A stretch of 56,794 nt of DNA, from assembly GCA_032718475.1 (NCBI GenBank), contig JAUCBJ010001911.1, positions 1-56,794 on the forward strand, read 5' to 3'. Both the position numbers and the translations under genes were made by a program. Below the pieces are notes generated by a model. The model searched no databases and was not told where the DNA came from. It was given only the letters and a program-made list of their open reading frames with translations. This document shows, one piece after another, positions 496 through 48,754 of this stretch. This stretch comes from Nemertoderma westbladi. Lineage: Eukaryota; Animalia; Xenacoelomorpha. Within the stretch, counting starts at the first letter, position 1; each line of letters opens with the position of its first letter.

Positions 496-654
496 CGCAT
501 TCCACGTCCGCTCCAAACAACCCAAGAATAAAATGCTTTGAAATTGTACCAAACTTATAGCTTTTCTAGGCTGGTGCACTGAATATAAAATTAATTGATT
601 TAAAATATTTATTTTATTTTATATTTATTTAATTTGATAAGTCACAAGTATTTT

Positions 655-1019
655 TACATTTATTATAGGAAGGGATCTAGGGGTCTTAACCTCGAATGAT
701 AAGTTTATTTTACCGAAAATAACTTATCTTTTATTGGCTGGTTGTAGTCTCGGCTTCCGCCTCGAGGTCCCAGGTTCGAATCCGACACCACGCTGATGAG
801 ACCCAGTAAGGTCGAAACGCGTACGTGGTTTGGAGAGATATGAGATATTAATTTCAAGAAAAATTACGCGATTCCTAAATTTGTACACTACCCGGTTAAA
901 AAGTACGCATGTGATGGGATTAGTCCCACAATTGCGCCAATAAAAGATAAGTTATTTTCGGTAAAATAAACTTATCATTCGAGGTTAAGACCCCTAGATC
1001 CCTTCCTATAATAAATGTA
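655..1019 (+). mobile_element. Putative non-autonomous Penelope-like/SINE unit: 84-bp perfect inverted repeats (655-738, 936-1019) around a tRNA-like head and a hammerhead ribozyme
   Basis: Arms are exact reverse complements; interior has B-box GGTTCGAATCC (773-783) followed directly by a hammerhead core. Confidence 0.7.
787..829 (+). ncRNA. Minimal type I hammerhead ribozyme
   Basis: Helix I ACCACG/CGTGGT, core CTGATGA (793-799), helix II GACC/GGTC with loop CAGTAA, GAAA (814-817), helix III reduced to palindrome ACGCGT, cleavage triplet GUA (821-823). Confidence 0.9.
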
Positions 1020-2687
1020 TAATAACAAACACCTCGAAAAATACAGCTTGCCAACACATTGTTACTATCAACAAGTATTTTTGCAATCTACAATAGTTTG
1101 TCTATCTACAATTGTTCGTCTAAAAACTTATGGGCCGACATTTTATTAACAGTGCGGTTGTTGCTACAGTGTAACAGACCAAGGAGAAGCACCACGGTTG
1201 GTATTGTGTATAGTTGCTAGGAAACACAGCATGGATGGCGGATTATCTTTCTATATAACTTATTGTTGTGGTATTCGTAGCATAGTAATAGTTACCAGGA
1301 AAGAGAGGTTTATGGGATATTCGGTAATTATAGAAAACTCTAATATTCTTTTTTTTCAAAGAGTTGTTATCTATGATTATTCTAGAATTGTAACAAACAT
1401 AATAAATATCAATAATTAATGAAAACTTAATATATTATGAAGACAATCTTATATAATTATAATTACGAAATTAAAATGAAATAACTACAAACATGTTTTT
1501 GTTACAATTATGTCAAATTAATAGAGCGATCCTAAATATCAACACCAAATAAAACACTCATCTCTTAGAAACAATTGACTTCTAGAATACGTCTTGAGTA
1601 TTCTACATTTCTCTAGCATGGATGATAGCCATTGCATTCCATGTGTAAGTAGCGTAAGTGTTGGTTGTAGTTCAATAAAAGGATCAATAATCTTTTCTGT
1701 AACATTAAACATTACAATTAAATTATTAAAGTGATTAATTAAATGTTCAGATCGCTGATAAGTTGACATATTCTAACAAAATTAGGTAAAAATACATAAA
1801 TGTCTGAAAAGGGCCAGTATTGAGAGTTTATGAACCATTTCTTATATTTATGTAAGTCCCCTTGATTCACCAGCGCGGTACATAAATACGTTTTGTGTCA
1901 CCGCAGCGCTCAAAGGTGATTTATCATTTTCAATTCCCTCTGGTGCAGATTTTTATGTGAATTGTAATGTTAACCTTACTCTGTTAATTAACTCCATGAT
2001 TAATTATATTACATTTACATATTGTTTGATCTTCTACAGTAGGTATGTTAGACCCTTCAGCTTTCTATGTGTTACCATATTTCACATCATGAGATATAGA
2101 CAAGATACATTTTTTTCATGCAATTTAATGATATTTATCTAGAGATTAATTACAGATTATCTTATCATATAGGAATGTTTGTTAAAAAGTTAACAAAATT
2201 AACTTGTTAAAGAATGTGAAAATTTATTTGACAAAATATCTGATCATATAATATTCAGGTAACTAGCCAATAGGATTAGCTCTTTCATAATCGACAACGC
2301 CGTAACTTAAATGGATATAATTTCTGCTTGTGGGTAGTTTTGTATTTTTTATTACTTTATGGGACTAACTTAGGGTAAAAAATTGGATTAAAAATAAATG
2401 TTAAAATTTCGTCGCCCTCTATCTGCCACAACCGTAAAATGTTAATTCACTATAAACATTTGGACATAATCTATAAATTTTGTTACAATGTAATAATTTT
2501 TATCAGTTAGATTCAATTGGATTCTTTACATTATTCATCTTATGGCGCGAATCTTTACTTATTATTTTTGAGATTCCAGATAATTAGTAATTTTTAGTTG
2601 TTAATTATATTACAAAAAATATGCAAATAACGCCAATCAGCCAATAATAATAAGCCAATCATATTTCATTCTCATCTAATAAATTCT

Positions 2688-7545: not shown

Positions 7546-10500
7546 CTATTTACTAAGATTGGGTGGAGATTTGTAGTCTCCTGACTCGTTTCTAGTCTCC
7601 TCAAGGAGCACGAGACGTTGTACAGGTCTGTCTACGGTACGTCCGTTGATAGTCCTTACAGTAACTGTCCTCACTACACCAGATGTAGGGTGCGTGGTCA
7701 AAATGACTCCAGTCAGCCAAAACCGTCTTTTCAGATTGGCTTCAGCCAATAAAACGTGGTCACCGCGTCTCAAACATCGGGTATTAAGATACCAAGAGGT
7801 TCTGGTCGAAATAGAGGGCAAATAATATTTCTGCCATATTTCCCAGAATTTATTTGCAAGCAATTGAGTGATTTTCCAAGCTTTGTTGCCGTATCCGTCA
7901 CTATCAACGGGTACCGAAATGGGCAACAATGTCGTCGGCGCCTGCATAAGCAGGTGCGCTGGTGTCAAGGCAAACTGTGTGTCGTTATTGTCTGGGATCA
8001 AAGCGATCGGTCTAGTGTTCAAAATCGCTTCGATTTCTATTAACAACGTCGTCAGTTGGTCGTCTGTCAGTATGTGTTGCGTCGGTACGACTTTAGCCAT
8101 AGCTGTCTTAATTGAACCAATCAGCCTTTCCCAAACGCCGCCTCTCCACGGACTGTCTGGAGTATTAAAATACCAAACAATTCGGTGAGAACGTAGTTCC
8201 TCGGAAATCTGGTTTTGGTCCAACCTTTTCAAAGCTCTGGTTATCTCGTTCCGTGCACCCACAAAGTTTGTCCCTTGGTCACAGTAAATGGATTTGACCA
8301 ATCCACGTCTAGCGATAAATCGCCGTAAGGCTAGGATAAAGGAATTGGTGGTCAAATCTGTCACTCGCTCTATATGGACAGCTCTGCTGGCCATGCAAGT
8401 GAAGATCAATCCCCAACGTTTTACCTGTACCCTTCCGCGTTTCGCGATTATGGGTCCAAAACAGTCTATCCCTGTCTCAGTGAAAGGGGGTCTAAATGCC
8501 TGTAATCTCGCTAGTGGTAGTTCACTCATTTCTTGGTGTCCTATCCTCGCGTGCACCTTCTTACAAATCATACAGTTCCGTGTTACCGAACTCAGTGCCT
8601 TACTAGGTCTAATCAGTACAAACCTCGAGCGTAAGTGTGATAGACAGTGGTGTCTACCCACGTGTTTGAGTTGTACATGTGCGTCCAGTATCATAGCGCG
8701 CTGTAATTCATGGTGTTGCGGTATGATGATAGGATACCTAAAGTCAAGTGCAAAATCGATGTTTTGGAGTCTGGACTTGTGACAAAGTAAGCCCCGGTAA
8801 ATAATCGGACTCCAACTCAAAATCGGTGAAGACTTAATCTGTTTACCTTGGTTGATCGCTGTGAACTCTCGTGCGAAATATCGCAATTGATAATGTCTAA
8901 TGATATCAACTTCACAATGGCCAACTTCCTTTAAGGTAAGTCTTCTAGGAAAGTCGCGTTTGCCTCTGGCATATTGTCTCAATCGTTTGAGCCATGCTAA
9001 CTTGCGGCACGCGTCAGTCCATGATCTAGTTAGGTTTACTATCCGGTATACGTAAGTGTTAGTGACGTCATCAGGTAAGGTATAGTCGTATTGTGGATAC
9101 TTGTCTGGACTTGGTAGGCCCACGGGCCTTCCGGTAGGTTTGTCTGAGTCCCCAAGTACGTCAATCTTTACGGTCTTACCTTTACCGTCCGCACCTAATG
9201 TGTCGACTGGCAGTAACGGTTTCAACTCTACAGTACCAGTGTGTTCCTGTGAGCCTGTAAGCTTCCTAACCTTAGTCACACGTTTCACTGTAGGTGGTAA
9301 GTCAAGTACTTTCTTCGAGCGGAGTGTGATCGCTGTGGCCACACATTTGTCGTCCAAAGAAGTCAAATTCGGTAAGTCTCTAAATGTCCGCTCCAATGGG
9401 TCTTTTAATGGAGTGTCTAGTAGACAGTCTGGTGAAGCGTCCGGTGAACAGTCTGGCGAGACGTCTGGTGAGACATAGCGCGGAACTTCCAGCGAAATGT
9501 CTTGTCGTCGGTCCCAAGGTCTGTCTGGCGTAACTTCTAGCAGAAAGTCTGGTCCAAAGTCTGGTCTAAAGTCTGGTGGACAGTCTGTCGAGATGTCTGG
9601 TGGAAAGTCTGGTGAGACGTCCGGTAGAGATTCTGTCGAGAGTTCCATCAAACAGTCTGGCGAACAATCCGGAGAACAATCTGGTGTCGCTTCTGGTGAA
9701 TAATCTGGCGAGTAATCTGGTGAACAATCCGGCGAAACGTCTGGTGAAATCTCCCGCGGAACATCCGGCGAAGGATTCGTACAAGCGTCTGGTCGAGTGT
9801 CTGGTGAGACGTCTGGCGTAATGTCAGGTCTGGCGTCCAGGTCATCAGATTTCGTCCGTCCTTGTTTCCTCTTGACCTTGGCGTTGGCTTTCGCTTTGGA
9901 CTTGACAACCTTGTCGATTTTTATCTCGGCACCCTCTGGTATGGTGTTGGTTGTCGCGTCGAATAACTGTGGCCATTCGTCTGATGGTCGCTGTAGGAAG
10001 TCGGGTCCTCTAAACCAAAAGGATTTATTGTCCGGTTTACAAAAGTCAAGCGGTTGCATCCCCCGTGATGCGATGTCAGCTGGGTTCAGCTTCCCTGGAC
10101 AGTGACGCCAATCTTGTTTGAGCGACCGGTCTAGTATTTCAGCACGTCTGTTGGCTACGAAAGTCTTGAACTCAAACGCTTCGTTGTTTATGTACCAAAG
10201 TACCAACGTTGCATCCGTCCAATATGTGACCTTCAAGTTAGCCTCCAGCTCGCGTTGAACTAGACTGACAATATCTGTGGATATCGTCCCGGCTTGCAGC
10301 TCTCCATGAGGTACAGTCATATACTTCAATGGCATTGTTCTAGCCTTTGAAGTAACGAGAGACACATCATAGCTGTCCGATGTCACTTGTCGTCTAAGAT
10401 ATAAGGTAACCCCCAATCCATCCTTGCTAGCGTCACTAAAGCTGTGAAGCTCTAAATCAGCAGGAAAGGTGGTTTGCAAAGGAAAGTATACCCTCGGTAT

Positions 10501-13500
10501 GGTATAGTCTTGTAGGAACGTCAGTTGGGCTTCCCAGTCCCTCCATTGCTCAGCTAACTTTTCTGGGATGGGATCGTCCCATTCCAGTCCGGCTTGCCAA
10601 ATGCTGCGGAGTATGATCCTAGCATGTAGGATCACTGGACTAATGAAACACAATGAGTCATACAATCGACTCATGGTCGATAAGCAAGTCCTCTTAGTGA
10701 GAGGTCTAGTCTGGTCGTTGGACCTTACACGTACCCTAAAATTGTCGGTGTTAGGGTCCCAACTAAGTCCTAATACTTTGGTCGTCGGTAGAGGTTCTAG
10801 GTCTAAGTCCAAGTCACCTCCACTGCGATCCGTCGGGTCAAATGAGTTCACCAGCTCGGGTTCGTTGGAAGCGAACTTCGTCAGGTGGAATCCGCCCTCA
10901 GCGAGACAATCCTGGAGTTGGTGTGCTACGGTTGTAGCGCGCTCCAAGGTGTCACAACTCTTGAGGCCGTCATCCACATAGAAATCTCGTTCCACTGTCC
11001 GAACTACTTCTGGGTCAAATTGGTCTCGTCTGTCCAATGCGGTCTGCTTTAAGGCGTACATGGTGCAGTTGGGGCTGTCCCTGGCTCCAAAGACTCTTAC
11101 CTGCATTTGGTAAGTTTCTGGCGGAAGTTGTAAGTTTCCGTCCGGATACCAAAGAAACCTCAAGCTGTCCCTGTCCCGCTCCAAAGCCTTAACCTGGTGA
11201 AACATGGCCTCTACGTCACAGGTGAAAGCCACTTTGTGTTGTCTAAAACGCATTAGGACTCCCATGAGGTAATTGTTCATATTCGGCCCGTCCATCAGTT
11301 CGCTGTTCATAGACATCCCTTGGTAAAGCGCGGCGCAGTCGTTGACTACACGCACCTTGCCAGGTTTGTCCGGGTGTCGAACAAAATGATGTGGCAGGTA
11401 ATATGTCTGGTCTGTGGTTACCTTGGGATTTAGCATCCTAATGGCGTATCCCTTTTGGAGATACGTCTGAAGTTGTGCATTGTATTGCATATGGGCCGCC
11501 TCGTCTCGCAACAATCGCTGCCTTATTGATTTGAGTCGCCTCAAAGCAAGCGGGTAATTGTTAACGAGTTTAGGTTGTCCATTGCGCCACAACATACCAA
11601 CCTCATAGTGGCCATTCGCGGTCTGGCGAATGGTATCTCTCATAATATTTAATGACCGTTTTTCCTGTTCTGACATAGCGGTCTCGTAACTACTGGGTTC
11701 TGCTGAGACCTGTTCCAACCATTGAATGGTCCATTCAGTCAGCAGTCGGTCAAGCGCTGCTTGCACTGCGCCATGGTCCTCGTCCACGTCTTCATTCGCT
11801 GCGGTGGCTAGTGTCAATGTGTCTGGTAGGCTCGCAAGCCTTCTGGTGTCACTAGTCGGCGTTGAATCGTCGTGCGGCGGTTTGACAACTTCTTGATCTA
11901 TCGGTAGGCTCGCAAGCCTTCCAAGATCAACGACCAGTGTCGAAGCTTGGTGGGTGGGGTCAATGACCTTCGGATTTTTCGGTAGGCTCGCAAGCCTTCC
12001 AAAATCCTCGTTCATCGAGTCATCCACGGCAACAACCCTTTGGTCTTCAGTAGTCAATACAACCTGGTTTACTGCAAGTAGTTGTAAGTCAGAGGTCCGT
12101 GTGGTCGTGTCCAGATCAGTTACGTCAGTATCGGTGGCGTCTGCGTTAGCGACGCAAGTCTGTCGTAGTGCCGTCCGTACAATTGGACCACGGGAGTGTG
12201 AAGGAGAGTTATCTATTGTAGTAGTCAATAAACTACACGTACTCAAAACGTCGTCCTCCTGGTCACTTACCTCTAGTGAACGTATTGGTGCTCTAGTATA
12301 CCAACCTATGGGAGTTCTACATGCGTAGGGGTTGCCCGCTGTAATAACAGATGGGCGTGTCTCCCATACCTGATGTAAGTTAAACTGGTCTGTCCCAATT
12401 AACATCGCAATGGAACGATAATTAACAGGACATTCCGGTATTCCAAGGTGTCGGAAATACTTACGATCTTCCGGTGATTGCTCTGGCACAGGGCCGAGCA
12501 AGTTACTAAAGTCCTTCGTAGCTGCAAAGGTCAAATTTCTTACCGGAAGTAATGAGCGCTCCTCCTTGCTGTGTTCCGCTTTGCAAAGAAGAGTGTCTAA
12601 GGTTAGTTTTACTCTCGTCACAGGGATCGCTCTCTTACCATGCATGCTGCTTACAGTATACTGAGCAGTCTTACCTTGACTCATGTCCGTAACCACGTCG
12701 GCTACTTGTTCGTCGACATAGCTATGCGATGATGCAGAGTCTAAGATAGCGTATATACGCTTGCTCCCTCGGGTTCCGGTAATCTTTATAGGAATCACAC
12801 TAAACCCTTTCAATTGGTTCTGTGTGAGGAGTGTTACCGATGGCTGTTCCTCACCTGCATGCACGTAGAAAGTGTCGTCTTCCTCCTCGTCCTCGTCCGA
12901 TGATCCTGACTGATCCATACAGTCCGTATAAAAGGTACGGATCTCGCGCGGCGCACGCTCCTTATAAAGCGCGTCGCATCTAGCCGCTTTATCTGGATGC
13001 TCTCGTCGAAAGCGTTTGGTCGGAGTATGACTGGTGGTGTGGAGTAACGCGTCATGGTTACGTCCACACAGAGGACATGTATCGTCGCTCGGGCAATCCT
13101 TCCGGACGTGTCCTGGCTTCATACATCTCCAGCAGGAATCTAATGATCGAATTTGGAGTCTCCTCTCTTCGATTCCTAACTCCTTAAAAGCGCGACATCC
13201 ACGAAGTTTATGTCCGCTGTAGTTTCTGCCGTTCCGCTCGCAGTACGAGCATCCCACAAAGTCTGCCGGCAACTGTTGTCGTGGCTGCGTGGTGTCGATA
13301 GGCGTCAGAACTTTAGAAGTCTCAGTAGGGGTGGCATAGGTAACGGCTTTCGTGTTCGTCGGAAATGGTTTAGTCCGATTTGGCGCAGAAATAGCTATCC
13401 CTTCTGCCGCGATATGATGATCGGTATAATTCGATCGAGTCTCGATCACGGCCTCCCGCGAAATCAGTTGATAGACGTCGGTGAGTTTTAAAAGCCCGCC

Positions 13501-13764
13501 GGCCTCTTCACGCTGGTACTCGATGCGTCGCCATTCTCGTCGGAGTCGATGATGAAGTCGACCGATTATCCTGATGAGAACCGTCAGTGCGTTAGCGTAC
13601 TCGAGTTGTCCAATGGACCGTAAAGTCCCTATAGCGTTTTTTATTTCGTCCACGAGTCGTAGAAGATCGATCGGTTTCGAAATGCTGCCTCCTCTACAGA
13701 GGTCTTCGATAATGGTTCCAACGGTTTCAACGTGGGTTTCTGTTGGGGTGTTTCTCGTGGAGGA
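7546..13764 (-). CDS. BEL/Pao polyprotein frame: capsid CTD, Cys-His knuckles, protease, RT, RNase H, integrase
   Basis: Three Cys-His knuckles; ILDSAS protease; YLPHH and FYVDD RT; FSDAS and NPADIASRG RNase H region; H-x4-H..CMIC, GIDCFGP, CDQG, GGVWE integrase. The frame is open from 13764, upstream of the GTG called at 13653. Confidence 0.95.
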   Translation of the reverse strand, partial: SSTRNTPTETHVETVGTIIEDLCRGGSISKPIDLLRLVDEIKNAIGTLRSIGQLEYANALTVLIRIIGRLHHRLRREWRRIEYQREEAGGLLKLTDVYQLISREAVIETRSNYTDHHIAAEGIAISAPNRTKPFPTNTKAVTYATPTETSKVLTPIDTTQPRQQLPADFVGCSYCERNGRNYSGHKLRGCRAFKELGIEERRLQIRSLDSCWRCMKPGHVRKDCPSDDTCPLCGRNHDALLHTTSHTPTKRFRREHPDKAARCDALYKERAPREIRTFYTDCMDQSGSSDEDEEEDDTFYVHAGEEQPSVTLLTQNQLKGFSVIPIKITGTRGSKRIYAILDSASSHSYVDEQVADVVTDMSQGKTAQYTVSSMHGKRAIPVTRVKLTLDTLLCKAEHSKEERSLLPVRNLTFAATKDFSNLLGPVPEQSPEDRKYFRHLGIPECPVNYRSIAMLIGTDQFNLHQVWETRPSVITAGNPYACRTPIGWYTRAPIRSLEVSDQEDDVLSTCSLLTTTIDNSPSHSRGPIVRTALRQTCVANADATDTDVTDLDTTTRTSDLQLLAVNQVVLTTEDQRVVAVDDSMNEDFGRLASLPKNPKVIDPTHQASTLVVDLGRLASLPIDQEVVKPPHDDSTPTSDTRRLASLPDTLTLATAANEDVDEDHGAVQAALDRLLTEWTIQWLEQVSAEPSSYETAMSEQEKRSLNIMRDTIRQTANGHYEVGMLWRNGQPKLVNNYPLALRRLKSIRQRLLRDEAAHMQYNAQLQTYLQKGYAIRMLNPKVTTDQTYYLPHHFVRHPDKPGKVRVVNDCAALYQGMSMNSELMDGPNMNNYLMGVLMRFRQHKVAFTCDVEAMFHQVKALERDRDSLRFLWYPDGNLQLPPETYQMQVRVFGARDSPNCTMYALKQTALDRRDQFDPEVVRTVERDFYVDDGLKSCDTLERATTVAHQLQDCLAEGGFHLTKFASNEPELVNSFDPTDRSGGDLDLDLEPLPTTKVLGLSWDPNTDNFRVRVRSNDQTRPLTKRTCLSTMSRLYDSLCFISPVILHARIILRSIWQAGLEWDDPIPEKLAEQWRDWEAQLTFLQDYTIPRVYFPLQTTFPADLELHSFSDASKDGLGVTLYLRRQVTSDSYDVSLVTSKARTMPLKYMTVPHGELQAGTISTDIVSLVQRELEANLKVTYWTDATLVLWYINNEAFEFKTFVANRRAEILDRSLKQDWRHCPGKLNPADIASRGMQPLDFCKPDNKSFWFRGPDFLQRPSDEWPQLFDATTNTIPEGAEIKIDKVVKSKAKANAKVKRKQGRTKSDDLDARPDITPDVSPDTRPDACTNPSPDVPREISPDVSPDCSPDYSPDYSPEATPDCSPDCSPDCLMELSTESLPDVSPDFPPDISTDCPPDFRPDFGPDFLLEVTPDRPWDRRQDISLEVPRYVSPDVSPDCSPDASPDCLLDTPLKDPLERTFRDLPNLTSLDDKCVATAITLRSKKVLDLPPTVKRVTKVRKLTGSQEHTGTVELKPLLPVDTLGADGKGKTVKIDVLGDSDKPTGRPVGLPSPDKYPQYDYTLPDDVTNTYVYRIVNLTRSWTDACRKLAWLKRLRQYARGKRDFPRRLTLKEVGHCEVDIIRHYQLRYFAREFTAINQGKQIKSSPILSWSPIIYRGLLCHKSRLQNIDFALDFRYPIIIPQHHELQRAMILDAHVQLKHVGRHHCLSHLRSRFVLIRPSKALSSVTRNCMICKKVHARIGHQEMSELPLARLQAFRPPFTETGIDCFGPIIAKRGRVQVKRWGLIFTCMASRAVHIERVTDLTTNSFILALRRFIARRGLVKSIYCDQGTNFVGARNEITRALKRLDQNQISEELRSHRIVWYFNTPDSPWRGGVWERLIGSIKTAMAKVVPTQHILTDDQLTTLLIEIEAILNTRPIALIPDNNDTQFALTPAHLLMQAPTTLLPISVPVDSDGYGNKAWKITQLLANKFWEIWQKYYLPSISTRTSWYLNTRCLRRGDHVLLAEANLKRRFWLTGVILTTHPTSGVVRTVTVRTINGRTVDRPVQRLVLLEETRNESGDYKSPPNLSK
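9420..9840 (-). repeat. 12-nt minisatellite encoding (S/P/R)PDx tetrapeptide repeats inside pol
   Basis: Repeated AGTCTGG/GTCTGGTGA units; peptide SPDVSPDCSPDYSPDY... Confidence 0.9.
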
Positions 13765-15980
13765 TTATCGATATAGGTGTTCGTCGATCGTTCCTCTCGT
13801 TTGTAATCCGCTGTCTCCACCGCTCCAGTACGGAATATTTCCCGTTCCGTCGACTCCAAATCGCTGGATGAATCGCTGTCGTCTGGATAAGGTGGTTGGC
13901 GGGTTCGCGTACGGCGTATTACTCTTGGTCGAGTTCGTTGTGGTCTGGGATCTACGACTCTCCGTTGTTCGGTAGGCTCGCAAGCCTTCCACGAAGTCGT
14001 AGGTCTCGTTGAACTCGGTTCGATCCTGTGGGTATTACCCACATCCATCGTCCTTCGTTGTTCGGTAGGCTCGCAAGCCTTCCACGAAGTCGTAGGTCTC
14101 GATAAACATTGGGTGAGAGGTCTAGTAAAAACATCGGAGTTAAGTGCTACTGTAGGTTTATAAATGACTGGGTTCGCGCAGCACGTCACAGGTTTAACTT
14201 GTAATGGTTTACTCACCAGTTTTACTGTCATAAACGCAGGTTCGTCTCTCTCTACAAGTAAACTACGGCTTACAGTAGGTGGACTACTTATCTTACCTGC
14301 GAGAATCGGCGATGAAGTCGCTCGTGGCTGCTGAATTGATTCCGACATAACAAACCTGCTACCTTGCGTCGAGCGCACAGGCGTTATTTCCTTAGGTTTC
14401 GTAACAAAGACCGGTTTTATCAGAGTCGTGGGTTTGAGCATAGGAATAACTTGGGGAAAACGTTTACAGTAATCCTCGACGAACTCCTCTCCTCGGTCTA
14501 TCGCTCCCACACTTCCTTCCTCGATTCGCTTCTGAATTCCGCGATATCGAGTCTCCATGCGATCCAGGGCAGACAAGTCGTGCCCAGCTCGAGACCTTAT
14601 AGATCTATCTCTCGCGTCGAGTTCGAGGTCCTCTTGCGCGTTCGCCGCCTCACGCGATCTGCGATTTAGTTCAAACTGTAGTTGCATCTCCCTTTCGCGT
14701 TGATCTGCTTCCTGTTGTTGTACCGCTAACTCCGCTTCCTGTATAGCTAAACGAGCGTTTATTTGTCGCGCCTCCAACTTGGCACGAGCGTCGGATGCTG
14801 CTTTCTTCCGTGCTAACTCAGCTGCATTTACCGCCGCAACTCGTGCTAGCTCGTCAGCCGCTGCCTGTCGTGCTAGCTCGTCAGCTGCCGCCTGTCGTGC
14901 TAACTCATCGGCTGCTGCCTGTCGTGCTAACTCGTCGGCTGCTGCCGCCGCGGCCGCTTCTCGCGCTAAGTCCTCCTCCAGTCTCCGCATCTCTGATGCT
15001 TCGAACTCAGCCTGTGCTTGAAGTTTCGCAAGTTTCGCTACATCCTCTCTGCGCTGTTTTTCTCCTTCGATGGCGATCTGCGCCATCTGTCGTTGCGCTT
15101 CTTCCTCGATGACTTGTTGTCGGCGTGCGACCTCCTGTTGTTGTCGAATAATTCCAGACGCTGTTCTACTAATGTCGCCAACGTCGCCAACGTCGCTCCG
15201 TACGCTAACGAACTATCTATCCAGTGGTGGAATTTGGTAGGCTCGCGAGCCTTCCGTAGATAGAACTTCCGTCGTCCCTCTCGGTACAACTTCCGGTTCT
15301 TCGATCGGTACTCCGCATCTACAAAGAAAATTGGTGAGCGTCCCTAACCTCCCGTCCAGGCAGTATAGTTCTTCTTCCTCTTCGGGTTGTAACAACGCGT
15401 CCGAAACTGACTCACCTAACAGTTGGTCGAGTTGTTCTTGCTGAGTCGATCCTACAACCGACTTAAACTGAATGAGGCTTTCCCTCGCACTTAACAACTT
15501 GTCTATTATCTTTACCTGAGTAAAGTTGTCGCCACACAACTCTGCGAGTTCGTGTAAACCTTTAAGTTTATCTACGGAGGCATGTACCCTACTTTTTATT
15601 CTTACCTGTAAGGTGTAGAACTCGTATCTCGACATCGGGGCGGTTAACTCGTGTAAAACGCGAAAACCTTCTCCGAGGTTCCGAGTAATCTGGGCCATGT
15701 GTCCTCCTATACTCCTAATAACGTTCTCCTGGCTTCCAGTCGAACTTACCATGTCCGGTTCCCGCGATCTGGTCTGCGGGACGGTAAGGAAATCTTCGAT
15801 TCTGCCGTCGCCACACGTTGCGGCTTCCGGTATTTCCGTTCGGGGTACCGGCGACGCATGCGGTGTGACATCGGTGGAATCTCGGGTTCTCCTTCTCGGT
15901 TCGTCTACTGTCGATCTGTCCGGGTCACACGAGTCATAGTCGGTAGGTGGGTATCGAGTCGAATGGTGTGTGTCACTCAT
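13641..15980 (-). CDS. gag N-terminal region of element 1: 255-aa ORF plus 481-aa coiled-coil ORF, same frame, separated only by one TAG at 15213-15215
   Basis: The 42 codons 15087-15212 are stop-free (FVSVRSDVGDVGD...EEEAQRQ); AAADELARQ 27-nt repeats. Confidence 0.8.
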
Positions 15981-18396
15981 GTCTTATTATATACGTCAAG
16001 TACGGGTAATAAAATGTCAAAGTATCAGAATGTCGAAATGTCAAAATGTCGAAATGTCAAACTTACCTTGGTATATATATACACTATATATATATACCCT
16101 AACCGGTACAAATAAAACTAACAAAGTATAATAAAATAAGTAATAATCTAGCCTACCGGCTAAATTTGTACGAATAAGTGAGATAACGGTATAAGTTACC
16201 AAAATGTAGATCAACAAGTACAAATAATAGGTAAAACAGCAACGTCTAATGGGAAAATAAGTACCAACAACACTACTAATAGACAGTGAAACCCACAAAT
16301 TTTGAGTACTACTGTGCTTTCTTAAGTTTGAACGACACGAGTCGTAAAACTTACGTTCCTTTGATCTTCCAGTCGTGCAAATTCCCAAATACAAACCGGA
16401 CGTGGGTCGTTCCGTTTTTCGGCGGCGCGGACGAATTTATTGTCTCCCAAACTTTGCGAAAAGCGGTCTAATCCTCGAAGCGGTCCAGAAATGAGTCCTT
16501 GAGTCCTGAATGGTCGAAGGTGAGAGTTTTACTTCTACGCTACGAAAAATTCTTCCTAGGTACCGATACAACTTGGTCTTTAAACCCTATGTACCTTTTC
16601 AAGTACCGAAAAGTAACACCGCACACACACGGCGTAAAACAAAATGCTACAAACTAACTATTAGCTAGTCAAATATTAAATACGAAAGTACTAGCTACCC
16701 TAAAAGCCTACTGAAGCAGGGGACGTTCTACAAATTACTAAATTTACTAACCTTAATTTTTAAATATCTCCTACTTACAATAGCTAACAGTATGTGAGAG
16801 ACCTCACGGTTGGGATATATGTTTCCTACTTTCGTAAGAATAAATATACCTCACTGTTGTGTCCTCTACGGTAGGGACTACCCTACAGCCTACAAATCTA
16901 CCAATACGAAGCTATAGAATATCTCTATCCGTAAAGTCCAGTAGTATACCGCTTAACAGATCCTAGTAACGATGTATCTTACTATGAGACTCTAGTAATG
17001 AAACGGGCTCGTACAGTATCTGACAACAAATCCCAGTCCAGGATATCTAAACAAACAGATACAATACACAAACTACTACTGGCGAGGAGCAGAGCCTGGT
17101 GTCTATTCTGTGTACGTGGGCGGGGCTAATGCCTACGAACTAGACAAAAGGATACCTGTCCTCTAACCGGTATGGCAGATGTACAGTTACGGTAACAGAC
17201 CAAACTCAAGGGAAAACAATCCCCGCGCAGCGAATCCTAACTATCGCTGACAGTCCTAAATACAGTAACTTGCCACGGTGTGATTTATATGGTTTATATA
17301 CGAGCTAGGTGGGTTACAGCCCTAGCGTAACAATGCTGATCTCAGTCCTTAATCAGTCTAAAGGGGGTCGTGCCTAATGTAACAATACTATTGAGCAGAA
17401 AACAATAGTTTAATAACGAAAATGAAATACTCCTTCTTGCCGTAACTAAATATCTGATCGTAATTTTACAAATACCGAAAGTACGATAAATATACTTTGC
17501 CTAAAGTGATCTAAAGTACGCTATAACTAGTAGGAACTCTAAGGGTAAATATGTTTTAGGGTGTGTGTGTGTGGGTGTGTTACAAATAAAACAATTTTGG
17601 TGTATATCTTTTCACTAGGTTTTAGTGATTTTCTGACTGAAATAATACCGTGCGCTAGCTACTAAAATAAGCTAGTCGCGTTTTGTAGAACTTTATACTC
17701 ACAAATGACATCAAAGCTCTCTCCTTCTTATCCACAACTCAAATGGGCAACCACGGTGTTAGTAACTACACCCGTGATCGGCACAAATACCAGATTCTGG
17801 TTGTAAGATAAGAAATAGGGATTAATTGCTACCGTACGTTAGCTGATCTGGTATACGAATTTGATTCTAGAACTTTGTTGCCACGGTAGTTAGCAGCAAA
17901 TACCTATCAGTACGTGGCAAGGCGCGGTAGGATATTAATAAAAACCTCCCTAGGCCAAGCGGTGTGCCAGTAGCAGAAATGCTCCTTGCCTGATCAAATA
18001 ACCAACTTCAGGCAAGGGGGGGGGGGGTGTACTAATGTATGCTCTACAGAGCGAACCGGTACCAAACAGTCAGTACTACAAATCACTAAATTATGGAACG
18101 TATGCTGTCCGTACCTAATATGTACTTGCGTACTGACGAACGGCAATAGCTCGCTATACCTGTGAGGCATACAGGTAACCCAGGGGTTTGCAGGACTGAC
18201 AAAGGGGGTTCTGCTTAAATATAGTTATTTGATCCTAAATTTGCGGCGTCCCAGGACGACATCACGCTTACCCTGATCTATAGGTCTTACGGCGGGCAAG
18301 GGCGTCAAACAAAGTCTTACCTTCCTCATAAAGCGGGCGCTGCATGGCGTGTGGAGTGGCGTGGGGGTGCGCGGTCTAATCTAATGTTCTAATGAA

Positions 18397-19105: not shown

Positions 19106-20371
19106 TCATTCGCTAAAAATTGGTTTCAGAAAATTTCACCTAAAATTTAATCATCATCTCCGGCCTTAAAATTGAACTCGACAGAACAACAGAACGACAG
19201 ACACACCGATTGAGTTAGTGGTATGCTAAGCTCGCCTACTTTCGTGGCTCGCCCCAAACACCAAGGAGAAGCACTACGGTCTGCATTGTGTATAGTTGCT
19301 AGGAAACACAGCATGGATGGCGGATGATCTTTCACTACAACTCATTGTTTTTATTTGGTTCATTGGTGTTATGGGTGAATAAGTGGTTTCATATTATTAT
19401 AACGTCTACTTGGACGTCATTGCCGACTTTGCAAAAGCTCTGCTCAACAAAAAGTTATAATAATATTCAGTAAAATATGGCATTCAATATTATAGTTTAT
19501 CTATGTCGGGAAGGGAAGGGGGGGGGGGGGATATGGTCCCTAGCCCTCCTTGCGTTGGGGACCAATCAATGACTTACTTTTGGTCGAACGGTTGTTAGGC
19601 AGTAAGTGGTAATAATTAATAATAGCCCATATTTATTTTAAGACTAATTTAACAGCCCATCAAATATCTACCCCTGTAAATGCTCTTACAGCAAGTTTGT
19701 TACAGTATCTTTAAAGTCACAGTGTTTACTAGTCTCTTACAGCGTGTTCGTAGTAAGCAGAATGTGTAGTAAATGAGAATTGGAAGGCCCATAGATAACA
19801 AACATTAATTTAGTCGCCCAGTTTTAGTCCCTGTCTTAACATTATTAATTAAACTAATAAATAAAAATATATTATCATAAACTATTTATCGTAAGTGATT
19901 AAACGGAACAATGGATGGGGAGAAAATAGAAAAAACTGTTTGTTTTTTGCAATATTTCGGACTCCTTACGGAAGACCGTCGTCAGGCAGTATTGAATTGA
20001 CCAGAATACAGAAAGGCGAATATTATAGTAAAAACAAACTGATTTGTCCTTTTTTTCCCCATCCATTGTTGCGTGTAATCTCACGATAATTTGAAATTGA
20101 AGTTGCAGGATGTGAGACCAATTAAATCTAAACTAATATTTATTATATTAAAAATTACTCAAACATTATATTTTACTCTTTATCCAAATATATTCAATAG
20201 TAATAAATACAGTGCGATCCTACATTTATTTGTAATACAATAACACTAACACTATGACACTTTGCAAAACAATAACGTTTATTGTTTTGGTTGCCCCAAT
20301 ACGCCTCTGAAACCTGCTCCTTTACTAACCTGCTCCTTTACTAACCTGCTCCTTTACTAACTAGGAGTAGG

Positions 20372-22000: not shown

Positions 22001-23561
22001 CCTGAGCTTTCTGTTTGTTCTAATATTTATTTTTTATCACAAACCGTTTCCATTTATAATCAATATAATGTCTACTTTTCTTTGTAAAATAATTGTTATA
22101 ATTTTCTTTAATTTTCTAGTTTAACTGCAGATTGTTTGTAAACATGCAGCTTGCATTAAGTATACTATGCCAATTTATCAACAAAATTGCTCCACCACAA
22201 CTCCTTAACCTCAATGACTTAGGATCGATATGACACTCAGTGACAGGCAGACAAATGCTACGATATAAAATATTTAATATAATAATAATATGTATATTTA
22301 TAATAATGTAATAGAGATATAAATAGGATCGATAAGACATACAGTGACAGGCAGACAAATGCGACAAGAGTGGGCATCTACTACTAGGATCGGCATGCTG
22401 CATTGCAGCTGCATTTTTAAGAATGCTGTGCCGGCTTGTCGACAAAATTTCCCCGCCACAACTCCCTATCAACCAATGACATGGAAAGCGAGACTAAATA
22501 CTTTTTAAACTTTTTTAGACTAAATAATATTAAAAGATTAAATAATATAATTATTTGTTTCGATTTACTTACACCTCTGTTGCAGTTTAACTTTACGCGG
22601 CTATTCATTCAGCCATTGTCTCCAACTAATATATTGAATGTTCTTATTGGTAGTTCAGTACCGTAGCCGTAGAAGCATTTTATTATTAATTGAATGCCGG
22701 CCTGTAGGTCGGCTATTATTCAAAGACTTGGGGTCATTCCCCCCTCCAGACATATAATTACTTTGTATTGCGATGTCAATAACAATACTCTTGTGTCTCC
22801 ATATTAATATAATATGCTTTCAACCAACCGGCTTTGTATTATATTCATTCATTATATTCATTCAACCTTGACTTTCTAGTTAAGTTATTATTTAGTGTTT
22901 AGTTTTGTATTCCAGTATTGTTATAGTTTGTTTATTCATAGGCCTAAATATTATCTGCTTTATTATAGAGACGTCGCATTATCCATAATTAATGGCCGTT
23001 CGCAATCAAATATATTAAAGTGTTTCGGGATCAGGGACGATTACAAGAAAGGTAATTTATTTATTATAATCCCGTATATAATTACTACGTAGCTAGACTT
23101 ACTATAAGAAGGCTTAACTTATGAATTAACTTATTATTTAAATTCATTTACTCAGGTTTACTCAAGAGGAACCGCGGCCGGCGGGTATGGTATCCGAGAG
23201 GGTATGGTTCGGTTGGGTGCAACCGAACAGATGCAAAAATTATTGCAGCAATCAGATCAGTATACGATGGTTCGACAACATTTGTCTCTACTGTTGATGG
23301 TGACACAGAACCATTTGAAGTGTTATGGGGCGTCCTCCAGGGAAACACACTTGCACCATTCTTGTTCATTATTGTGGTTGACTATGTTCTACGCATGTCC
23401 TTAGATCATCATAATGATGATGGGGTGATGGTAACTCCACCTACTGGCTCCAGAAGTCGAGGAAATCCTGCCAAGTACCTAACTGATCTAGACTTTGCTG
23501 ATGACTTAGGAGTACTCTCAGAATCACTAGAGAGGGAGCCCAACGGCTCCTCAGCTCATTA
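21960..23561 (+). repeat. Duplicated block (paralogue of ~46404-47998), including an inverted LINE 3' tip at 22378-22470
   Basis: Near-identical sequence and matching short ORFs in the track. Confidence 0.85.
23228..23561 (+). pseudogene. RTE-like LINE RT fragment
   Basis: GVLQGNTLAPFLF and YLTDLDFADD motifs. Confidence 0.85.
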
Positions 23562-23949
23562 TCAATATACTTATTGAATTAAAACCAATTATATCACAAT
23601 GTTGTAGTTTCACAGTTTTTAGTAAGGTTTGTTTTCCTTCACTCGGGGAGAAATTACATATTTCTATCCCCCCGTGGCACGATATTGTAACCAAAGCAAT
23701 AAACGAAAGGATGATAGAACATGTTACAGTTTTTGTTTTTTTAAAAGTAATCGGATTTTGTTTGCTTCGATTTTCCCCTATAGTGTGACACCACCATGCA
23801 ATCCATAATCAGCATTCAGCTTGCATTAAGTATACTATGCCAATTTATCAACAAAATTGCTCCGCCACAACTCCCTAACCTCAATGACTTAGATAGGATC
23901 GATAAGACACTCAGTGACAGGCTGGCAAATGCTAAAAGAGTGGGGGGTC

Positions 23950-26406: not shown

Positions 26407-29400
26407 ATTGGTCTCGTCTGTCCAATGCGGTCTGCTTTAAGGCGTACATGGTGCAGTTGGGGCTGTCCCTGGCTCCAAAGACTCTTACCTGCATTTGGTA
26501 AGTTTCTGGCGGAAGTTGTAAGTTTCCGTCCGGATACCAAAGAAACCTCAAGCTGTCCCTGTCCCGCTCCAAAGCCTTAACCTGGTGAAACATGGCCTCT
26601 ACGTCACAGGTGAAAGCCACTTTGTGTTGTCTAAAACGCATTAGGACTCCCATGAGGTAATTGTTCATATTCGGCCCGTCCATCAGTTCGCTGTTCATAG
26701 ACATCCCTTGGTAAAGCGCGGCGCAGTCGTTGACTACACGCACCTTGCCAGGTTTGTCCGGGTGTCGAACAAAATGATGTGGCAGGTAATATGTCTGGTC
26801 TGTGGTTACCTTGGGATTTAGCATCCTAATGGCGTATCCCTTTTGGAGATACGTCTGAAGTTGTGCATTGTATTGCATATGGGCCGCCTCGTCTCGCAAC
26901 AATCGCTGCCTTATTGATTTGAGTCGCCTCAAAGCAAGCGGGTAATTGTTAACGAGTTTAGGTTGTCCATTGCGCCACAACATACCAACCTCATAGTGGC
27001 CATTCGCGGTCTGGCGAATGGTATCTCTCATAATATTTAATGACCGTTTTTCCTGTTCTGACATAGCGGTCTCGTAACTACTGGGTTCTGCTGAGACCTG
27101 TTCCAACCATTGAATGGTCCATTCAGTCAGCAGTCGGTCAAGCGCTGCTTGCACTGCGCCATGGTCCTCGTCCACGTCTTCATTCGCTGCGGTGGCTAGT
27201 GTCAATGTGTCTGGTAGGCTCGCAAGCCTTCTGGTGTCACTAGTCGGCGTTGAATCGTCGTGCGGCGGTTTGACAACTTCTTGATCTATCGGTAGGCTCG
27301 CAAGCCTTCCAAGATCAACGACCAGTGTCGAAGCTTGGTGGGTGGGGTCAATGACCTTCGGATTTTTCGGTAGGCTCGCAAGCCTTCCAAAATCCTCGTT
27401 CATCGAGTCATCCACGGCAACAACCCTTTGGTCTTCAGTAGTCAATACAACCTGGTTTACTGCAAGTAGTTGTAAGTCAGAGGTCCGTGTGGTCGTGTCC
27501 AGATCAGTTACGTCAGTATCGGTGGCGTCTGCGTTAGCGACGCAAGTCTGTCGTAGTGCCGTCCGTACAATTGGACCACGGGAGTGTGAAGGAGAGTTAT
27601 CTATTGTAGTAGTCAATAAACTACACGTACTCAAAACGTCGTCCTCCTGGTCACTTACCTCTAGTGAACGTATTGGTGCTCTAGTATACCAACCTATGGG
27701 AGTTCTACATGCGTAGGGGTTGCCCGCTGTAATAACAGATGGGCGTGTCTCCCATACCTGATGTAAGTTAAACTGGTCTGTCCCAATTAACATCGCAATG
27801 GAACGATAATTAACAGGACATTCCGGTATTCCAAGGTGTCGGAAATACTTACGATCTTCCGGTGATTGCTCTGGCACAGGGCCGAGCAAGTTACTAAAGT
27901 CCTTCGTAGCTGCAAAGGTCAAATTTCTTACCGGAAGTAATGAGCGCTCCTCCTTGCTGTGTTCCGCTTTGCAAAGAAGAGTGTCTAAGGTTAGTTTTAC
28001 TCTCGTCACAGGGATCGCTCTCTTACCATGCATGCTGCTTACAGTATACTGAGCAGTCTTACCTTGACTCATGTCCGTAACCACGTCGGCTACTTGTTCG
28101 TCGACATAGCTATGCGATGATGCAGAGTCTAAGATAGCGTATATACGCTTGCTCCCTCGGGTTCCGGTAATCTTTATAGGAATCACACTAAACCCTTTCA
28201 ATTGGTTCTGTGTGAGGAGTGTTACCGATGGCTGTTCCTCACCTGCATGCACGTAGAAAGTGTCGTCTTCCTCCTCGTCCTCGTCCGATGATCCTGACTG
28301 ATCCATACAGTCCGTATAAAAGGTACGGATCTCGCGCGGCGCACGCTCCTTATAAAGCGCGTCGCATCTAGCCGCTTTATCTGGATGCTCTCGTCGAAAG
28401 CGTTTGGTCGGAGTATGACTGGTGGTGTGGAGTAACGCGTCATGGTTACGTCCACACAGAGGACATGTATCGTCGCTCGGGCAATCCTTCCGGACGTGTC
28501 CTGGCTTCATACATCTCCAGCAGGAATCTAATGATCGAATTTGGAGTCTCCTCTCTTCGATTCCTAACTCCTTAAAAGCGCGACATCCACGAAGTTTATG
28601 TCCGCTGTAGTTTCTGCCGTTCCGCTCGCAGTACGAGCATCCCACAAAGTCTGCCGGCAACTGTTGTCGTGGCTGCGTGGTGTCGATAGGCGTCAGAACT
28701 TTAGAAGTCTCAGTAGGGGTGGCATAGGTAACGGCTTTCGTGTTCGTCGGAAATGGTTTAGTCCGATTTGGCGCAGAAATAGCTATCCCTTCTGCCGCGA
28801 TATGATGATCGGTATAATTCGATCGAGTCTCGATCACGGCCTCCCGCGAAATCAGTTGATAGACGTCGGTGAGTTTTAAAAGCCCGCCGGCCTCTTCACG
28901 CTGGTACTCGATGCGTCGCCATTCTCGTCGGAGTCGATGATGAAGTCGACCGATTATCCTGATGAGAACCGTCAGTGCGTTAGCGTACTCGAGTTGTCCA
29001 ATGGACCGTAAAGTCCCTATAGCGTTTTTTATTTCGTCCACGAGTCGTAGAAGATCGATCGGTTTCGAAATGCTGCCTCCTCTACAGAGGTCTTCGATAA
29101 TGGTTCCAACGGTTTCAACGTGGGTTTCTGTTGGGGTGTTTCTCGTGGAGGATTATCGATATAGGTGTTCGTCGATCGTTCCTCTCGTTTGTAATCCGCT
29201 GTCTCCACCGCTCCAGTACGGAATATTTCCCGTTCCGTCGACTCCGAATCGCTGGATGAATCGCTGTCGTCTGGATAAGGTGGTTGGCGGGTTCGCGTAC
29301 GGCGTATTACTCTTGGTCGAGTTCGTTGTGGTCTGGGATCTACGACTCTCCGTTGTTCGGTAGGCTCGCAAGCCTTCCACGAAGTCGTAGGTCTCGTTGA

Positions 29401-47669: not shown

Positions 47670-48754
47670 ACGGATGCAAAAATTATTGCAGCAATCAGAT
47701 CAGTATACGATGGTTCGACAACATTTGTCTCTACTGTTGATGGTGACACAGAACCATTTGAAGTGTTATGGGGCGTCCTCCAAGGAGACACACTTGCACC
47801 ATTCTTGTTCATAATTCTGGTTGACTATGTTCTACGCATGTCCTTAGATCATCATAATGATTGGTGATGATAACTCCACCTACTGGCTCCAGAAGTCGAG
47901 GAAATCCTGCCAAGTACCTAACTGATCTAGACTTTGCTGATGACTTAGGAGTACTCTCAGAATCATTAGAGGGAGCCCAACGGCTCCTCAGCTCATTAGA
48001 ACATGCTGCTTCTAGTGTTGGTGTTTTTATTAACTCGAGAAAGACCGAAATTTTGACAGTTTACTTTGAAAGTCCTCAGCAAGTCTCTGATCGGATGAGA
48101 TGGTATGCATGAAAAGGTGGTATGCTTGAGCATGTGGACGACTTCTGTTACCTGGGATCATGGATCCGGAAGTCAGGTGAGGACATTCGAATACGTAAGG
48201 GAAAGGCATGGGCAGCCTTGAATAAGCTTTCCAGGATTTGGAAGTCACCTAGAATTAATCGGAAACTTAAGGTCCGATTATTTAGAGCAGCAGTAGTTCC
48301 AGTACTCCTCTACGGGAGTCCATGCTGGGCTCTAACTGCTGAGGACACCAAATCTCTGGATGGCACATTCACAAGAATGCTACGCCGGGTTCATTGTGTC
48401 AAGTACAATGCACACATCTCCAACCAGACACTATATAACATTGGAGGTGTCTCATTGGTTCCCCCAAGCTTGACACTAGAACAAATCCGCCTCCGCTTTG
48501 CAGGACATTGCTTTCGCCGTGAGGACCAGCCAGTGCATAATCTTGTACTTTGGCAGCCTCATGGAGTGAATAAGCATGGTGACAGCCCATGACTTTCTTG
48601 AGACTCATCTTAAAGGACACTGGCCTTGAAGATGTGGATGATCTAGCAAATGTCATGGGTGATAGGGAGTTGTGGCGGCGCAATTTTGTCGACAAGCCGG
48701 CACATCATTCTTAAAAATGCAGCTGCAATGCAGCATGCCGATCCTAGTAGTAGT
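47670..48754 (+). mobile_element. 5'-truncated RTE-like LINE (RT domain to (TAG)n tail), frameshifted
   Basis: GVLQGDTLAPFLF, DFADD, FCYLGSWI, LYGS and LRFAGH motifs. Confidence 0.9.

What the first reader, a model, noticed from the sequence alone, without database searches (positions are those of the whole stretch)
655..1019. tRNA-headed element fused to a Penelope-type minimal hammerhead ribozyme, framed by perfect 84-bp inverted repeats
Seen: a truncated tRNA-like segment (739-786, B-box GGTTCGAATCC) runs straight into a complete hammerhead core (787-829) whose helix III is only the palindrome ACGCGU. The last 84 bp of the unit are copied in inverted orientation at its 5' side with no mismatch. 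Established: minimal type I hammerheads with a palindromic helix III, which cleave as dimers, and inverted 5' terminal segments are hallmarks of Penelope-like elements, while tRNA heads define Pol III SINEs that normally depend on LINEs. Inference: this is a recently inserted Pol III-driven, self-cleaving SINE/retrozyme mobilised by a Penelope-like element, a combination I do not recognise as a standard class.
Basis: partly seen in the sequence, partly recalled or inferred. Interest (0 to 1): 0.82.

Follow-up and report, generated by a model that had tools for sequence, protein, structure and literature searches.

The report
tRNA-headed retrozyme with Penelope insertion signature
This 415-base insert is a truncated copy of an abundant non-coding repeat (unit likely 411 bases) that carries a hammerhead ribozyme motif behind tRNA-type promoter motifs, a design known from blood flukes; its inverted arm, one-sided tail and 12-base target duplication suggest it was likely pasted in by a Penelope-type enzyme rather than by the LINE enzymes that ordinary SINEs use.

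Summary
The 84-bp perfect inverted repeat, B-box and hammerhead are real, but the element is larger than reported. It spans 656-1070, has a 51-nt tail beyond the right arm, and sits between copies of a 12-bp target duplication. Public contigs show a young, very abundant family. Other copies have a complete A-box, and their inverted arms and 5' truncations vary, so this is neither a MITE nor a chance fusion. One contig closes head to tail as a 411-nt unit with no room for a gene. The ribozyme is the canonical retrozyme type, not the Penelope 'minimal' type, and is predicted to cleave as a dimer. Best reading (0.65): an Sm-alpha-like, tRNA-headed non-LTR retrozyme inserted by a Penelope enzyme. 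Promoter plus hammerhead is published (Schistosoma), and Penelope mobilisation of retrozymes has been proposed; I found no paper showing arm, tail and duplication on such an element (10 searches). Transcription, cleavage and the partner enzyme are untested. The scan noted 411/412-base units elsewhere in this genome and similar elements in other genomes.

The parts
644..655 (+). Left copy of the 12-bp target-site duplication (T655 also fits the inverted arm)
   Evidence: Exact repeat of 1071-1082
655..738 (-). Inverted, truncated second copy of the unit (936-1019 reversed), lacking the tail
   Evidence: 84/84 complementary; other copies have arms of other lengths
739..786 (+). Remnant of the tRNA-like head: last 3 nt of the A-box, spacer, and B-box at 773-783; the first 8 nt of the family A-box are missing in this copy
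   Evidence: B-box; consensus of 18 X1 contigs before 739 completes an A-box 31 nt before the B-box (read by eye)
781..834 (+). Canonical type I hammerhead: distal stem 781-785/830-834 (overlapping the B-box end), helix I 6 bp, helix II 4 bp with a 6-nt loop, palindromic helix III 817-822; predicted cut after 823
   Evidence: dimer fold -42.7 vs two monomers -34.4 kcal/mol
835..844 (+). 10-nt segment whose exact complement lies just upstream of the tRNA-like head in other copies; predicted to close head plus ribozyme into one domain
   Evidence: Reverse complement printed, compared by eye with the X1 loose end before 739
845..1019 (+). Non-coding body; the only T4 run of the unit's visible sense strand is at 955-958; 936-1019 is the source of the inverted arm
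   Evidence: Stops in all three sense frames, T-run scan
1020..1070 (+). One-sided 51-nt A+C-rich tail beyond the inverted repeat, ending at the family's main terminus
   Evidence: A+C 0.69 vs 0.53 in the body; loose ends at 1070/1071 and 1064-1073
1071..1082 (+). Right copy of the target-site duplication (A1071 also fits the family sequence)
   Evidence: X4 contig matches through 1071

Best explanation
This is a 5'-truncated, recently inserted copy of an abundant protein-free repeat (unit likely 411 nt) with tRNA-type promoter boxes directly before a hammerhead motif, likely a non-autonomous retrozyme that is likely copied into DNA by a Penelope-like element's reverse transcriptase and endonuclease. 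Steps: (1, inferred) Pol III starts at the A/B boxes of a unit in a tandem source array and reads through the T4 run into the next unit. (2, predicted) Two hammerheads pair through the 6-nt palindrome and cut after A823, giving permuted monomers with the promoter at their 3' end, which RtcB-type ligase may circularise. (3, inferred) A PLE protein nicks both strands of AT-rich DNA about 12 bp apart and primes one cDNA from each end, starting internally at two sites, about 1070 and about 1019. (4, shown as anatomy) The two cDNAs stop early and are joined head to head, giving duplication, inverted arm without tail, forward copy with tail, duplication. This copy lost its A-box and has one hammerhead, so it is probably inactive.
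For: Anatomy: perfect arm, 51-nt one-sided tail and 12-bp duplication match the PLE pattern of an inverted 5'-truncated copy, a tail at one end and an 8-10 bp duplication (PMC3846280 passages; PMC8557442 passages). PAc extends both strands and starts at two internal AC-rich sites that delimit the tail (PMC11167929 main text); our tail is 69% A+C. Family: 3394 contigs laid in X1 and 1409 in X3, most 95% or more alike; main terminus at 1070/1071 and a weaker one at 1013-1024. Arm-to-forward junctions of other copies: 684>1035, 685>1040, 711>781, 730>1010 (4 of 15 joints shown, 41 not shown), 709>824 (table 5c) and one X5 contig joining the arm to 1029. Non-coding unit: the 441-nt X4 contig reads 987-1071, then 78 other nt, then 739-1016, with a 30-nt end overlap, so 411 nt head to tail. 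Its first 10 letters after 1071 equal the X1 and X3 majority loose ends there. Promoter: A-box complete in 18 X1 contigs, agreement 0.81; the box matches expected by chance are 0.66 (B) and 2.49 (A) per window, so both at tRNA spacing beside a hammerhead is unlikely by chance.
Against: No Penelope reverse transcriptase or GIY-YIG was found in the window (125 ORFs scanned), and no genome is held, so no partner was seen. The hammerhead is the canonical type, not the PLE minimal type. The tail is longer than the 30-40 bp reported. A T4 run at 955-958 could stop Pol III before both proposed start sites. The head-to-tail unit rests on one contig of depth 13.8 in a run labelled as another organism, whose RNA status is a guess; 18 of its 78 extra nt were not seen. 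The arm junction rows have short sides (20-31 nt), which the tool flags as weak. The outer arm end of other copies is only loosely placed. Three of the seven junctions (forward part starting at 1029-1040) also fit LINE twin priming. An unchecked note on this genome (e1-10596620) reports 412-base units joined to a LINE tail.
Confidence: 0.65

Rival explanations
1. Same tRNA-headed retrozyme, but copied by a LINE enzyme; the inverted arm arises by twin priming on a multimeric RNA.
For: Decayed LINE-type RT pieces lie in the window (RVT_1, DUF6451). Three junctions with the forward part starting just past the arm's source (1029-1040) fit twin-priming geometry (recalled). A 12-bp duplication is also normal for LINEs. 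The family continues after 1071 with a short A-rich stretch. Unchecked note e1-10596620 reports a join to a LINE tail.
Against: In this copy and three other junctions (forward part from 781, 824 and about 999) the forward part repeats the arm's span, which twin priming on one unit does not give. A second terminus near 1013-1024 recurs in three runs. There is no poly(A) at the insertion end and no similarity of the unit to the window's LINE pieces.
Confidence: 0.14
2. The unit is the pseudo-LTR of an autonomous Penelope element that carries its own tRNA-type promoter; short copies are its truncation products.
For: The anatomy is that of PLE ends. A 19-codon ATG-started frame (1015-1071) runs through the tail, as the ORF start does in Pen2a and PAc (PMC3846280, PMC11167929). 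Unchecked notes on other genomes reached this reading (e1-8796959, e1-9598556, e1-8669850).
Against: The X4 contig closes back on the head after 78 nt, and the next codon after 1071 in that continuation is a stop. X1 and X3 majority loose ends start the same way. An open 19-codon frame is common by chance. The hammerhead is not the PLE minimal type.
Confidence: 0.13
3. A DNA MITE with 84-bp terminal inverted repeats that captured a tRNA-hammerhead fragment.
For: Perfect 84-bp inverted repeats next to a target duplication.
Against: The right repeat is 51 nt inside the duplication; depth and loose ends put the family end at 1070/1071; arm lengths vary from about 30 to 84 nt between copies; the unit also exists head to tail without arms.
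Confidence: 0.03
4. Chance neighbourhood of a SINE fragment and a PLE or hammerhead fragment at this locus only.
For: The B-box alone is not rare, and no second copy lies in the window.
Against: Single contigs in other runs bridge head and ribozyme (X4 739-1016 with 2 differences; X6 767-836 with 0 differences at depth 1811); summed depth is continuous across 753-1071; the B-box end is part of the ribozyme's distal stem.
Confidence: 0.01

Closest known systems
Schistosoma Sm-alpha / Sj-alpha SINE-like hammerhead retroposons (passages of PMC6765202, PMC2770079, PMC8490949; Ferbeyre 1998 and Laha 2000 not seen)
   Same: tRNA-type promoter followed by a type I hammerhead in a repeated non-coding unit; cleavage leaves the promoter at the 3' end of the monomer, so single copies are dead ends; very high copy number.
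   Different: Not tested for sequence homology. The passages I saw name no partner enzyme and no inverted arm or tail; here the insertion has a Penelope-type anatomy. Sm-alpha is linked to tRNA-Gln; the source tRNA here was not identified.
Metazoan non-LTR retrozymes (PMC7229834 passages; bioRxiv 10.64898/2026.07.22.740005 parts 1-3 of 5)
   Same: Canonical type I hammerhead, small non-coding head-to-tail unit, target duplication longer than 4 bp, PLEs proposed as the mobiliser.
   Different: Neither text describes a tRNA/Pol III head (preprint: 0 hits for tRNA, Pol III, tail; PMC7229834: 0 hits for Pol III, SINE, inverted). Their PLE link rests on shared features, co-occurrence and pLTR homology; here it rests on insertion anatomy.
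EN+ Penelope-like elements, Penelope/Poseidon type (PAc, PMC11167929; Pen2a, PMC3846280) and non-autonomous PLEs such as MRC1 (PMC8557442)
   Same: Inverted 5'-truncated copy, one-sided tail, short target duplication in AT-rich DNA, hammerhead with a palindromic helix III, AC-rich tail.
   Different: No RT-GIY-YIG ORF; canonical rather than minimal hammerhead; tail of 51 nt vs 30-40; tRNA-type boxes instead of the TATA/Inr-like motifs described for Pen2a.
tRNA-derived SINEs (own knowledge)
   Same: A and B boxes at tRNA spacing at the head of a short, high-copy, non-coding retroposon.
   Different: No poly(A) or LINE-like tail at the insertion end; head-to-tail units with a ribozyme; inverted arm; circularly permuted life cycle predicted.

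Membership tests
Non-LTR retrozyme | Canonical type I hammerhead (helix I 6 bp, II 4 bp, III 1-2 bp with palindromic loop) | tested here: met
   definition in PMC4209133 Results
Non-LTR retrozyme | Small unit without protein-coding capacity, LTRs, PBS or PPT | tested here: met
   411-nt unit; stops in all three sense frames of 739-1071; no Pfam hit on its open frames. PBS and PPT were not searched for specifically.
Non-LTR retrozyme | Head-to-tail tandem arrays in the genome | tested here: inconclusive
   One closed head-to-tail contig in X4 (tandem DNA or circle); matching first 10 letters after 1071 in X1 and X3 majority loose ends; no array in the window
Non-LTR retrozyme | Target duplication longer than 4 bp | tested here: met
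   12 bp exact, 10 bp if the ambiguous base at each junction is given to the element
Non-LTR retrozyme | Self-cleavage and circular RNA in cells | not testable with these tools
   Only contigs were available; no listed holder is on record as RNA
Sm-alpha-type element / tRNA SINE | A and B boxes at tRNA spacing upstream of the hammerhead | tested here: met
   Met in the family; the window copy lacks the A-box
Sm-alpha-type element / tRNA SINE | Recognisable descent from a tRNA gene | tested here: inconclusive
   No ARAGORN or Rfam tRNA match on the truncated head; the full head was not available as a stored sequence
Sm-alpha-type element / tRNA SINE | Pol III transcription | not testable with these tools
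   No raw RNA reads; T4 at 955-958 is a possible early terminator
LINE-dependent SINE | Poly(A), simple-repeat or LINE-derived 3' tail | tested here: not met
   Insertion ends at 1070 without such a tail; no match to the LINE pieces in the window. LINEs elsewhere in the genome could not be searched.
Autonomous EN+ PLE | ORF with RT and GIY-YIG endonuclease | tested here: not met
   None in the unit or among 125 window ORFs
PLE (insertion signature) | Inverted 5'-truncated copy adjacent to the 5' end, of variable length | tested here: met
PLE (insertion signature) | Tail extension at one end only | tested here: met
   1020-1070, 51 nt, longer than the 30-40 bp reported
PLE | Minimal hammerhead (helix II 7-8 bp, helix I 4-5 bp, extra base before helix II) | tested here: not met
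   Helix II 4 bp, helix I 6 bp, no extra base (vs PMC4209133)
Non-autonomous PLE derivative | Sequence shared with the pLTR of an autonomous PLE of the same genome | not testable with these tools
   No genome held
MITE | Constant inverted repeats at both termini, next to the target duplication | tested here: not met
   Right arm is 51 nt inside the end; arm lengths vary

The most novel reading that the evidence does not exclude
A 'Penelope SINE': a Pol III-driven, self-cleaving RNA circle that is retroposed by a PLE enzyme starting internally at two fixed sites, so that it needs no RNA 3' end. This would extend the SINE-partner rule from LINEs to PLEs and name the enzyme that moves Sm-alpha-type retrozymes.
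Probability: 0.45. Interest if true: 0.7.

Novelty: new variant of a known kind. Interest (0 to 1): 0.5.

Why it matters
Which enzyme moves animal retrozymes is an open question; the papers I saw argue for PLEs from shared ribozymes, co-occurrence and pLTR homology. This family is young and abundant and shows the PLE insertion signature (inverted arm, one-sided tail, target duplication) on an element with its own tRNA-type promoter boxes. That makes the question testable by counting ends in one genome and by an in vitro assay like the published PAc one. PLE internal priming would also explain how an RNA circle, which has no 3' end, can be retroposed. The promoter-plus-hammerhead design itself is known from schistosomes, which caps the novelty.

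Tried and rejected
Whole genome: none held, so no copy count, empty-site test or partner search. Second copy in the window: none. Exact 25-nt family pattern: 0 hits in metagenome, viral and genome contigs. A B-box-plus-hammerhead pattern gave 8 metagenome loci; 6 of the 7 scanned with ARAGORN hold intact tRNA genes, all 8 lack the family sequence (best local match 24 nt), and none was kept as a relative. tRNA identity: no ARAGORN or Rfam match. No RNA holder listed; this says nothing on expression. Run X7 (share 0.17) had nothing laid on 1017-1110, which is no evidence either way. Empty allele: not seen, but 615-637 had no cover. Copy number: summed depth is not a copy number, so none is given. 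Conservation of the catalytic core is uninformative because the whole family is homogeneous. A hand-written pair list was one base out of register; it was discarded and redone. Look-up of earlier findings by sequence and by place 'near' returned nothing. Host: the Pao/BEL protein's named relatives are mostly marine invertebrates at about 40-44% identity, which suggests an animal but does not place it. Ferbeyre 1998 and Lunse 2017 were not held; Laha 2000 was not looked up. Supplements of the papers were not read and may bear on whether tRNA heads or inverted arms were reported for retrozymes. Twin priming is recalled; the search for it was seen as a listing only.

Full report
Observation. The arms 655-738 and 936-1019 are a perfect 84-nt inverted repeat. 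The B-box is at 773-783. The hammerhead is real: Rfam HH9 matches 777-844 (E=0.001 on 3 kb, below gathering), and a helix-checking descriptor finds only this site in the window and 0 sites in 40 shuffles. An exact 12-bp direct repeat, 644-655 = 1071-1082, frames the element (chance about 2e-5). The insertion is therefore 656-1070, with 51 nt (1020-1070) lying beyond the right arm and absent from the left arm. The surroundings are repeat-rich animal-like DNA with Pao/BEL and decayed LINE pieces and no Penelope ORF among 125 frames scanned. No genome is held.

The family. Six of 12 listed runs hold half or more of the sampled words, in four studies; one may be the window's own source. On 500-1180, 3394 contigs were laid in X1 and 1409 in X3, most 95% or more alike. 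Summed depth is 1e5 to 8e5 over the unit in X1 against 24-114 in the covered flank bins; the tool warns that this is no copy number, but it marks a young, abundant repeat. Loose ends pile up behind 1070/1071 (42 contigs in X1, 33 in X3; consensus agreement about 0.5, as expected of many different flanks), with a weaker group behind 1013-1024 in three runs; 500 loose-end rows were not shown. Before 739, 18 X1 contigs agree (0.81) on a common upstream sequence. Read by eye against 739-741, it completes a full match to the recalled A-box consensus, 31 nt before the B-box. Chance expectations are 2.49 A-box and 0.66 B-box matches per window, so the pair at tRNA spacing beside a hammerhead is unlikely by chance. 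That upstream sequence also holds the exact complement of 835-844, which would close head and ribozyme into one domain; this is a prediction. The window copy keeps only 8 of 11 A-box positions.

Unit size. Run X4 holds one 441-nt contig reading 987-1071, 78 other nt, then 739-1016, with a 30-nt overlap of its ends. That is how a 411-nt head-to-tail unit assembles, whether from tandem DNA or from an RNA circle. The first 10 letters after 1071 in this contig equal the majority loose ends of X1 and X3, so the continuation exists in DNA runs. All three sense frames of 739-1071 have stops, and 78 nt cannot hold an RT. Caveats: it is one contig at depth 13.8, X4 is labelled as another organism, its RNA status is a guess, and 18 of the 78 nt were not seen.

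Other insertions. Joints from the arm into the forward unit occur at 684>1035, 685>1040, 711>781 and 730>1010 (4 of 15 joints shown, 41 not shown), at 709>824 (table 5c) and in an X5 contig joining arm sequence to 1029. Arms thus run from about 30 to 84 nt and the forward part is truncated at many places. These rows have short sides and are individually weak, but together they exclude constant terminal repeats.

Ribozyme type. Helix I has 6 bp plus a 5-bp distal stem that uses the end of the B-box; helix II has 4 bp and a 6-nt loop; helix III has 2 bp and a 2-nt loop. PMC4209133 (Results read) calls this the canonical animal type I form and defines the PLE minimal form by a 7-8 bp helix II, a 4-5 bp helix I and an extra base.

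Mechanism. The anatomy matches PLE insertions: an inverted truncated copy at the 5' side, a tail at one end and an 8-10 bp duplication (PMC3846280 passages; PMC8557442 passages). Purified PAc cuts and extends both strands in AT-rich DNA and starts reverse transcription at two internal AC-rich sites whose interval is the tail (PMC11167929 main text). Here the two termini are about 1019 and 1070 and the interval is 69% A+C. I infer that one cDNA began at 1070 and ran to 739, the other began at 1019 and ran to 936, and the two were joined head to head. The forward cDNA crosses the predicted cut site, so its template was uncleaved or re-ligated RNA; PAc also prefers unprocessed RNA. Pol III transcription from tandem source arrays, dimer cleavage and circularisation are inferred by analogy with Sm-alpha (PMC6765202 passages) and retrozymes (PMC7229834 passages). 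Against this reading: no partner enzyme was seen, a T4 run at 955-958 must be read through, the tail is longer than reported, and three junctions also fit LINE twin priming (recalled).

Comparison and novelty. Promoter plus hammerhead in tandem units, with the promoter left at the 3' end of the cleaved monomer, is described for Schistosoma, and Sm-alpha is tRNA-Gln-related (PMC2770079 passages; PMC8490949 passages). PLE mobilisation of animal retrozymes was proposed in 2020 and argued from co-occurrence and pLTR homology in a 2026 preprint (parts 1-3 of 5 read), which does not mention tRNA, Pol III or tails. Ten searches showed no paper joining a tRNA head, a hammerhead and PLE insertion anatomy; the library lacks most subscription papers, and Ferbeyre 1998, Laha 2000 and Lunse 2017 were not seen. 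It works like a non-autonomous PLE passenger, is best filed as an Sm-alpha-type non-LTR retrozyme with the tandem criterion only indirectly met, and is not an autonomous PLE, a LINE-tailed SINE or a MITE on the features tested.

Earlier notes. The scan's unchecked notes describe 411/412-base tRNA-hammerhead units in tandem or mirror layout elsewhere in this genome and similar elements in other genomes. I derived the 411-nt size before seeing the same-genome notes, could not compare sequences, and do not count them as support. They supplied paper leads and two rivals.

Verdict. Real element, boundaries corrected to 656-1070; new variant of a known kind; interest 0.5.

Noticed in passing
window 942-1066, run X6 contig 24: A 600-nt contig at depth 512 differs from the window at 11 places, 9 of them T>C (A>G on the minus strand). 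This resembles A-to-I hyperedited antisense RNA copied back into DNA; one contig only.
   Followed up: no
window 748-856, run X6 contig 18: An 1831-nt contig at depth 401 carries a copy with changes in the hammerhead core (795, 815, 822), probably a dead copy amplified inside another repeat.
   Followed up: no
window 19886-20089: Imperfect self-inverted 200-bp element with a hammerhead-like motif at 19985 on the minus strand; it fails the helix test and folds weakly.
   Followed up: partly
window 7546-13764 (-), 11019-16403 and 26407-31791: Pao/BEL retrotransposon with an unbroken 2072-aa frame; a 5.4-kb part is duplicated at 99.9% identity.
   Followed up: partly
window 23125-23577, 47861-48109, 48113-48592: Decayed LINE-type RT fragments (RVT_1, DUF6451) within a family repeated several times in the window.
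   Followed up: no
L002:1437-1546, L004:1005-1114, L005:1143-1253, L008:1240-1349 (L003 is near-identical to L002): Intact tRNA-Glu genes followed within about 10 nt by a hammerhead-like core with a conserved helix II in metagenome contigs; unrelated to this family.
   Followed up: partly
window 709>824 junction, run X1 (table 5c): In one other copy the forward part resumes exactly at the predicted cleavage product's first base, a weak hint of a cleaved template.
   Followed up: no
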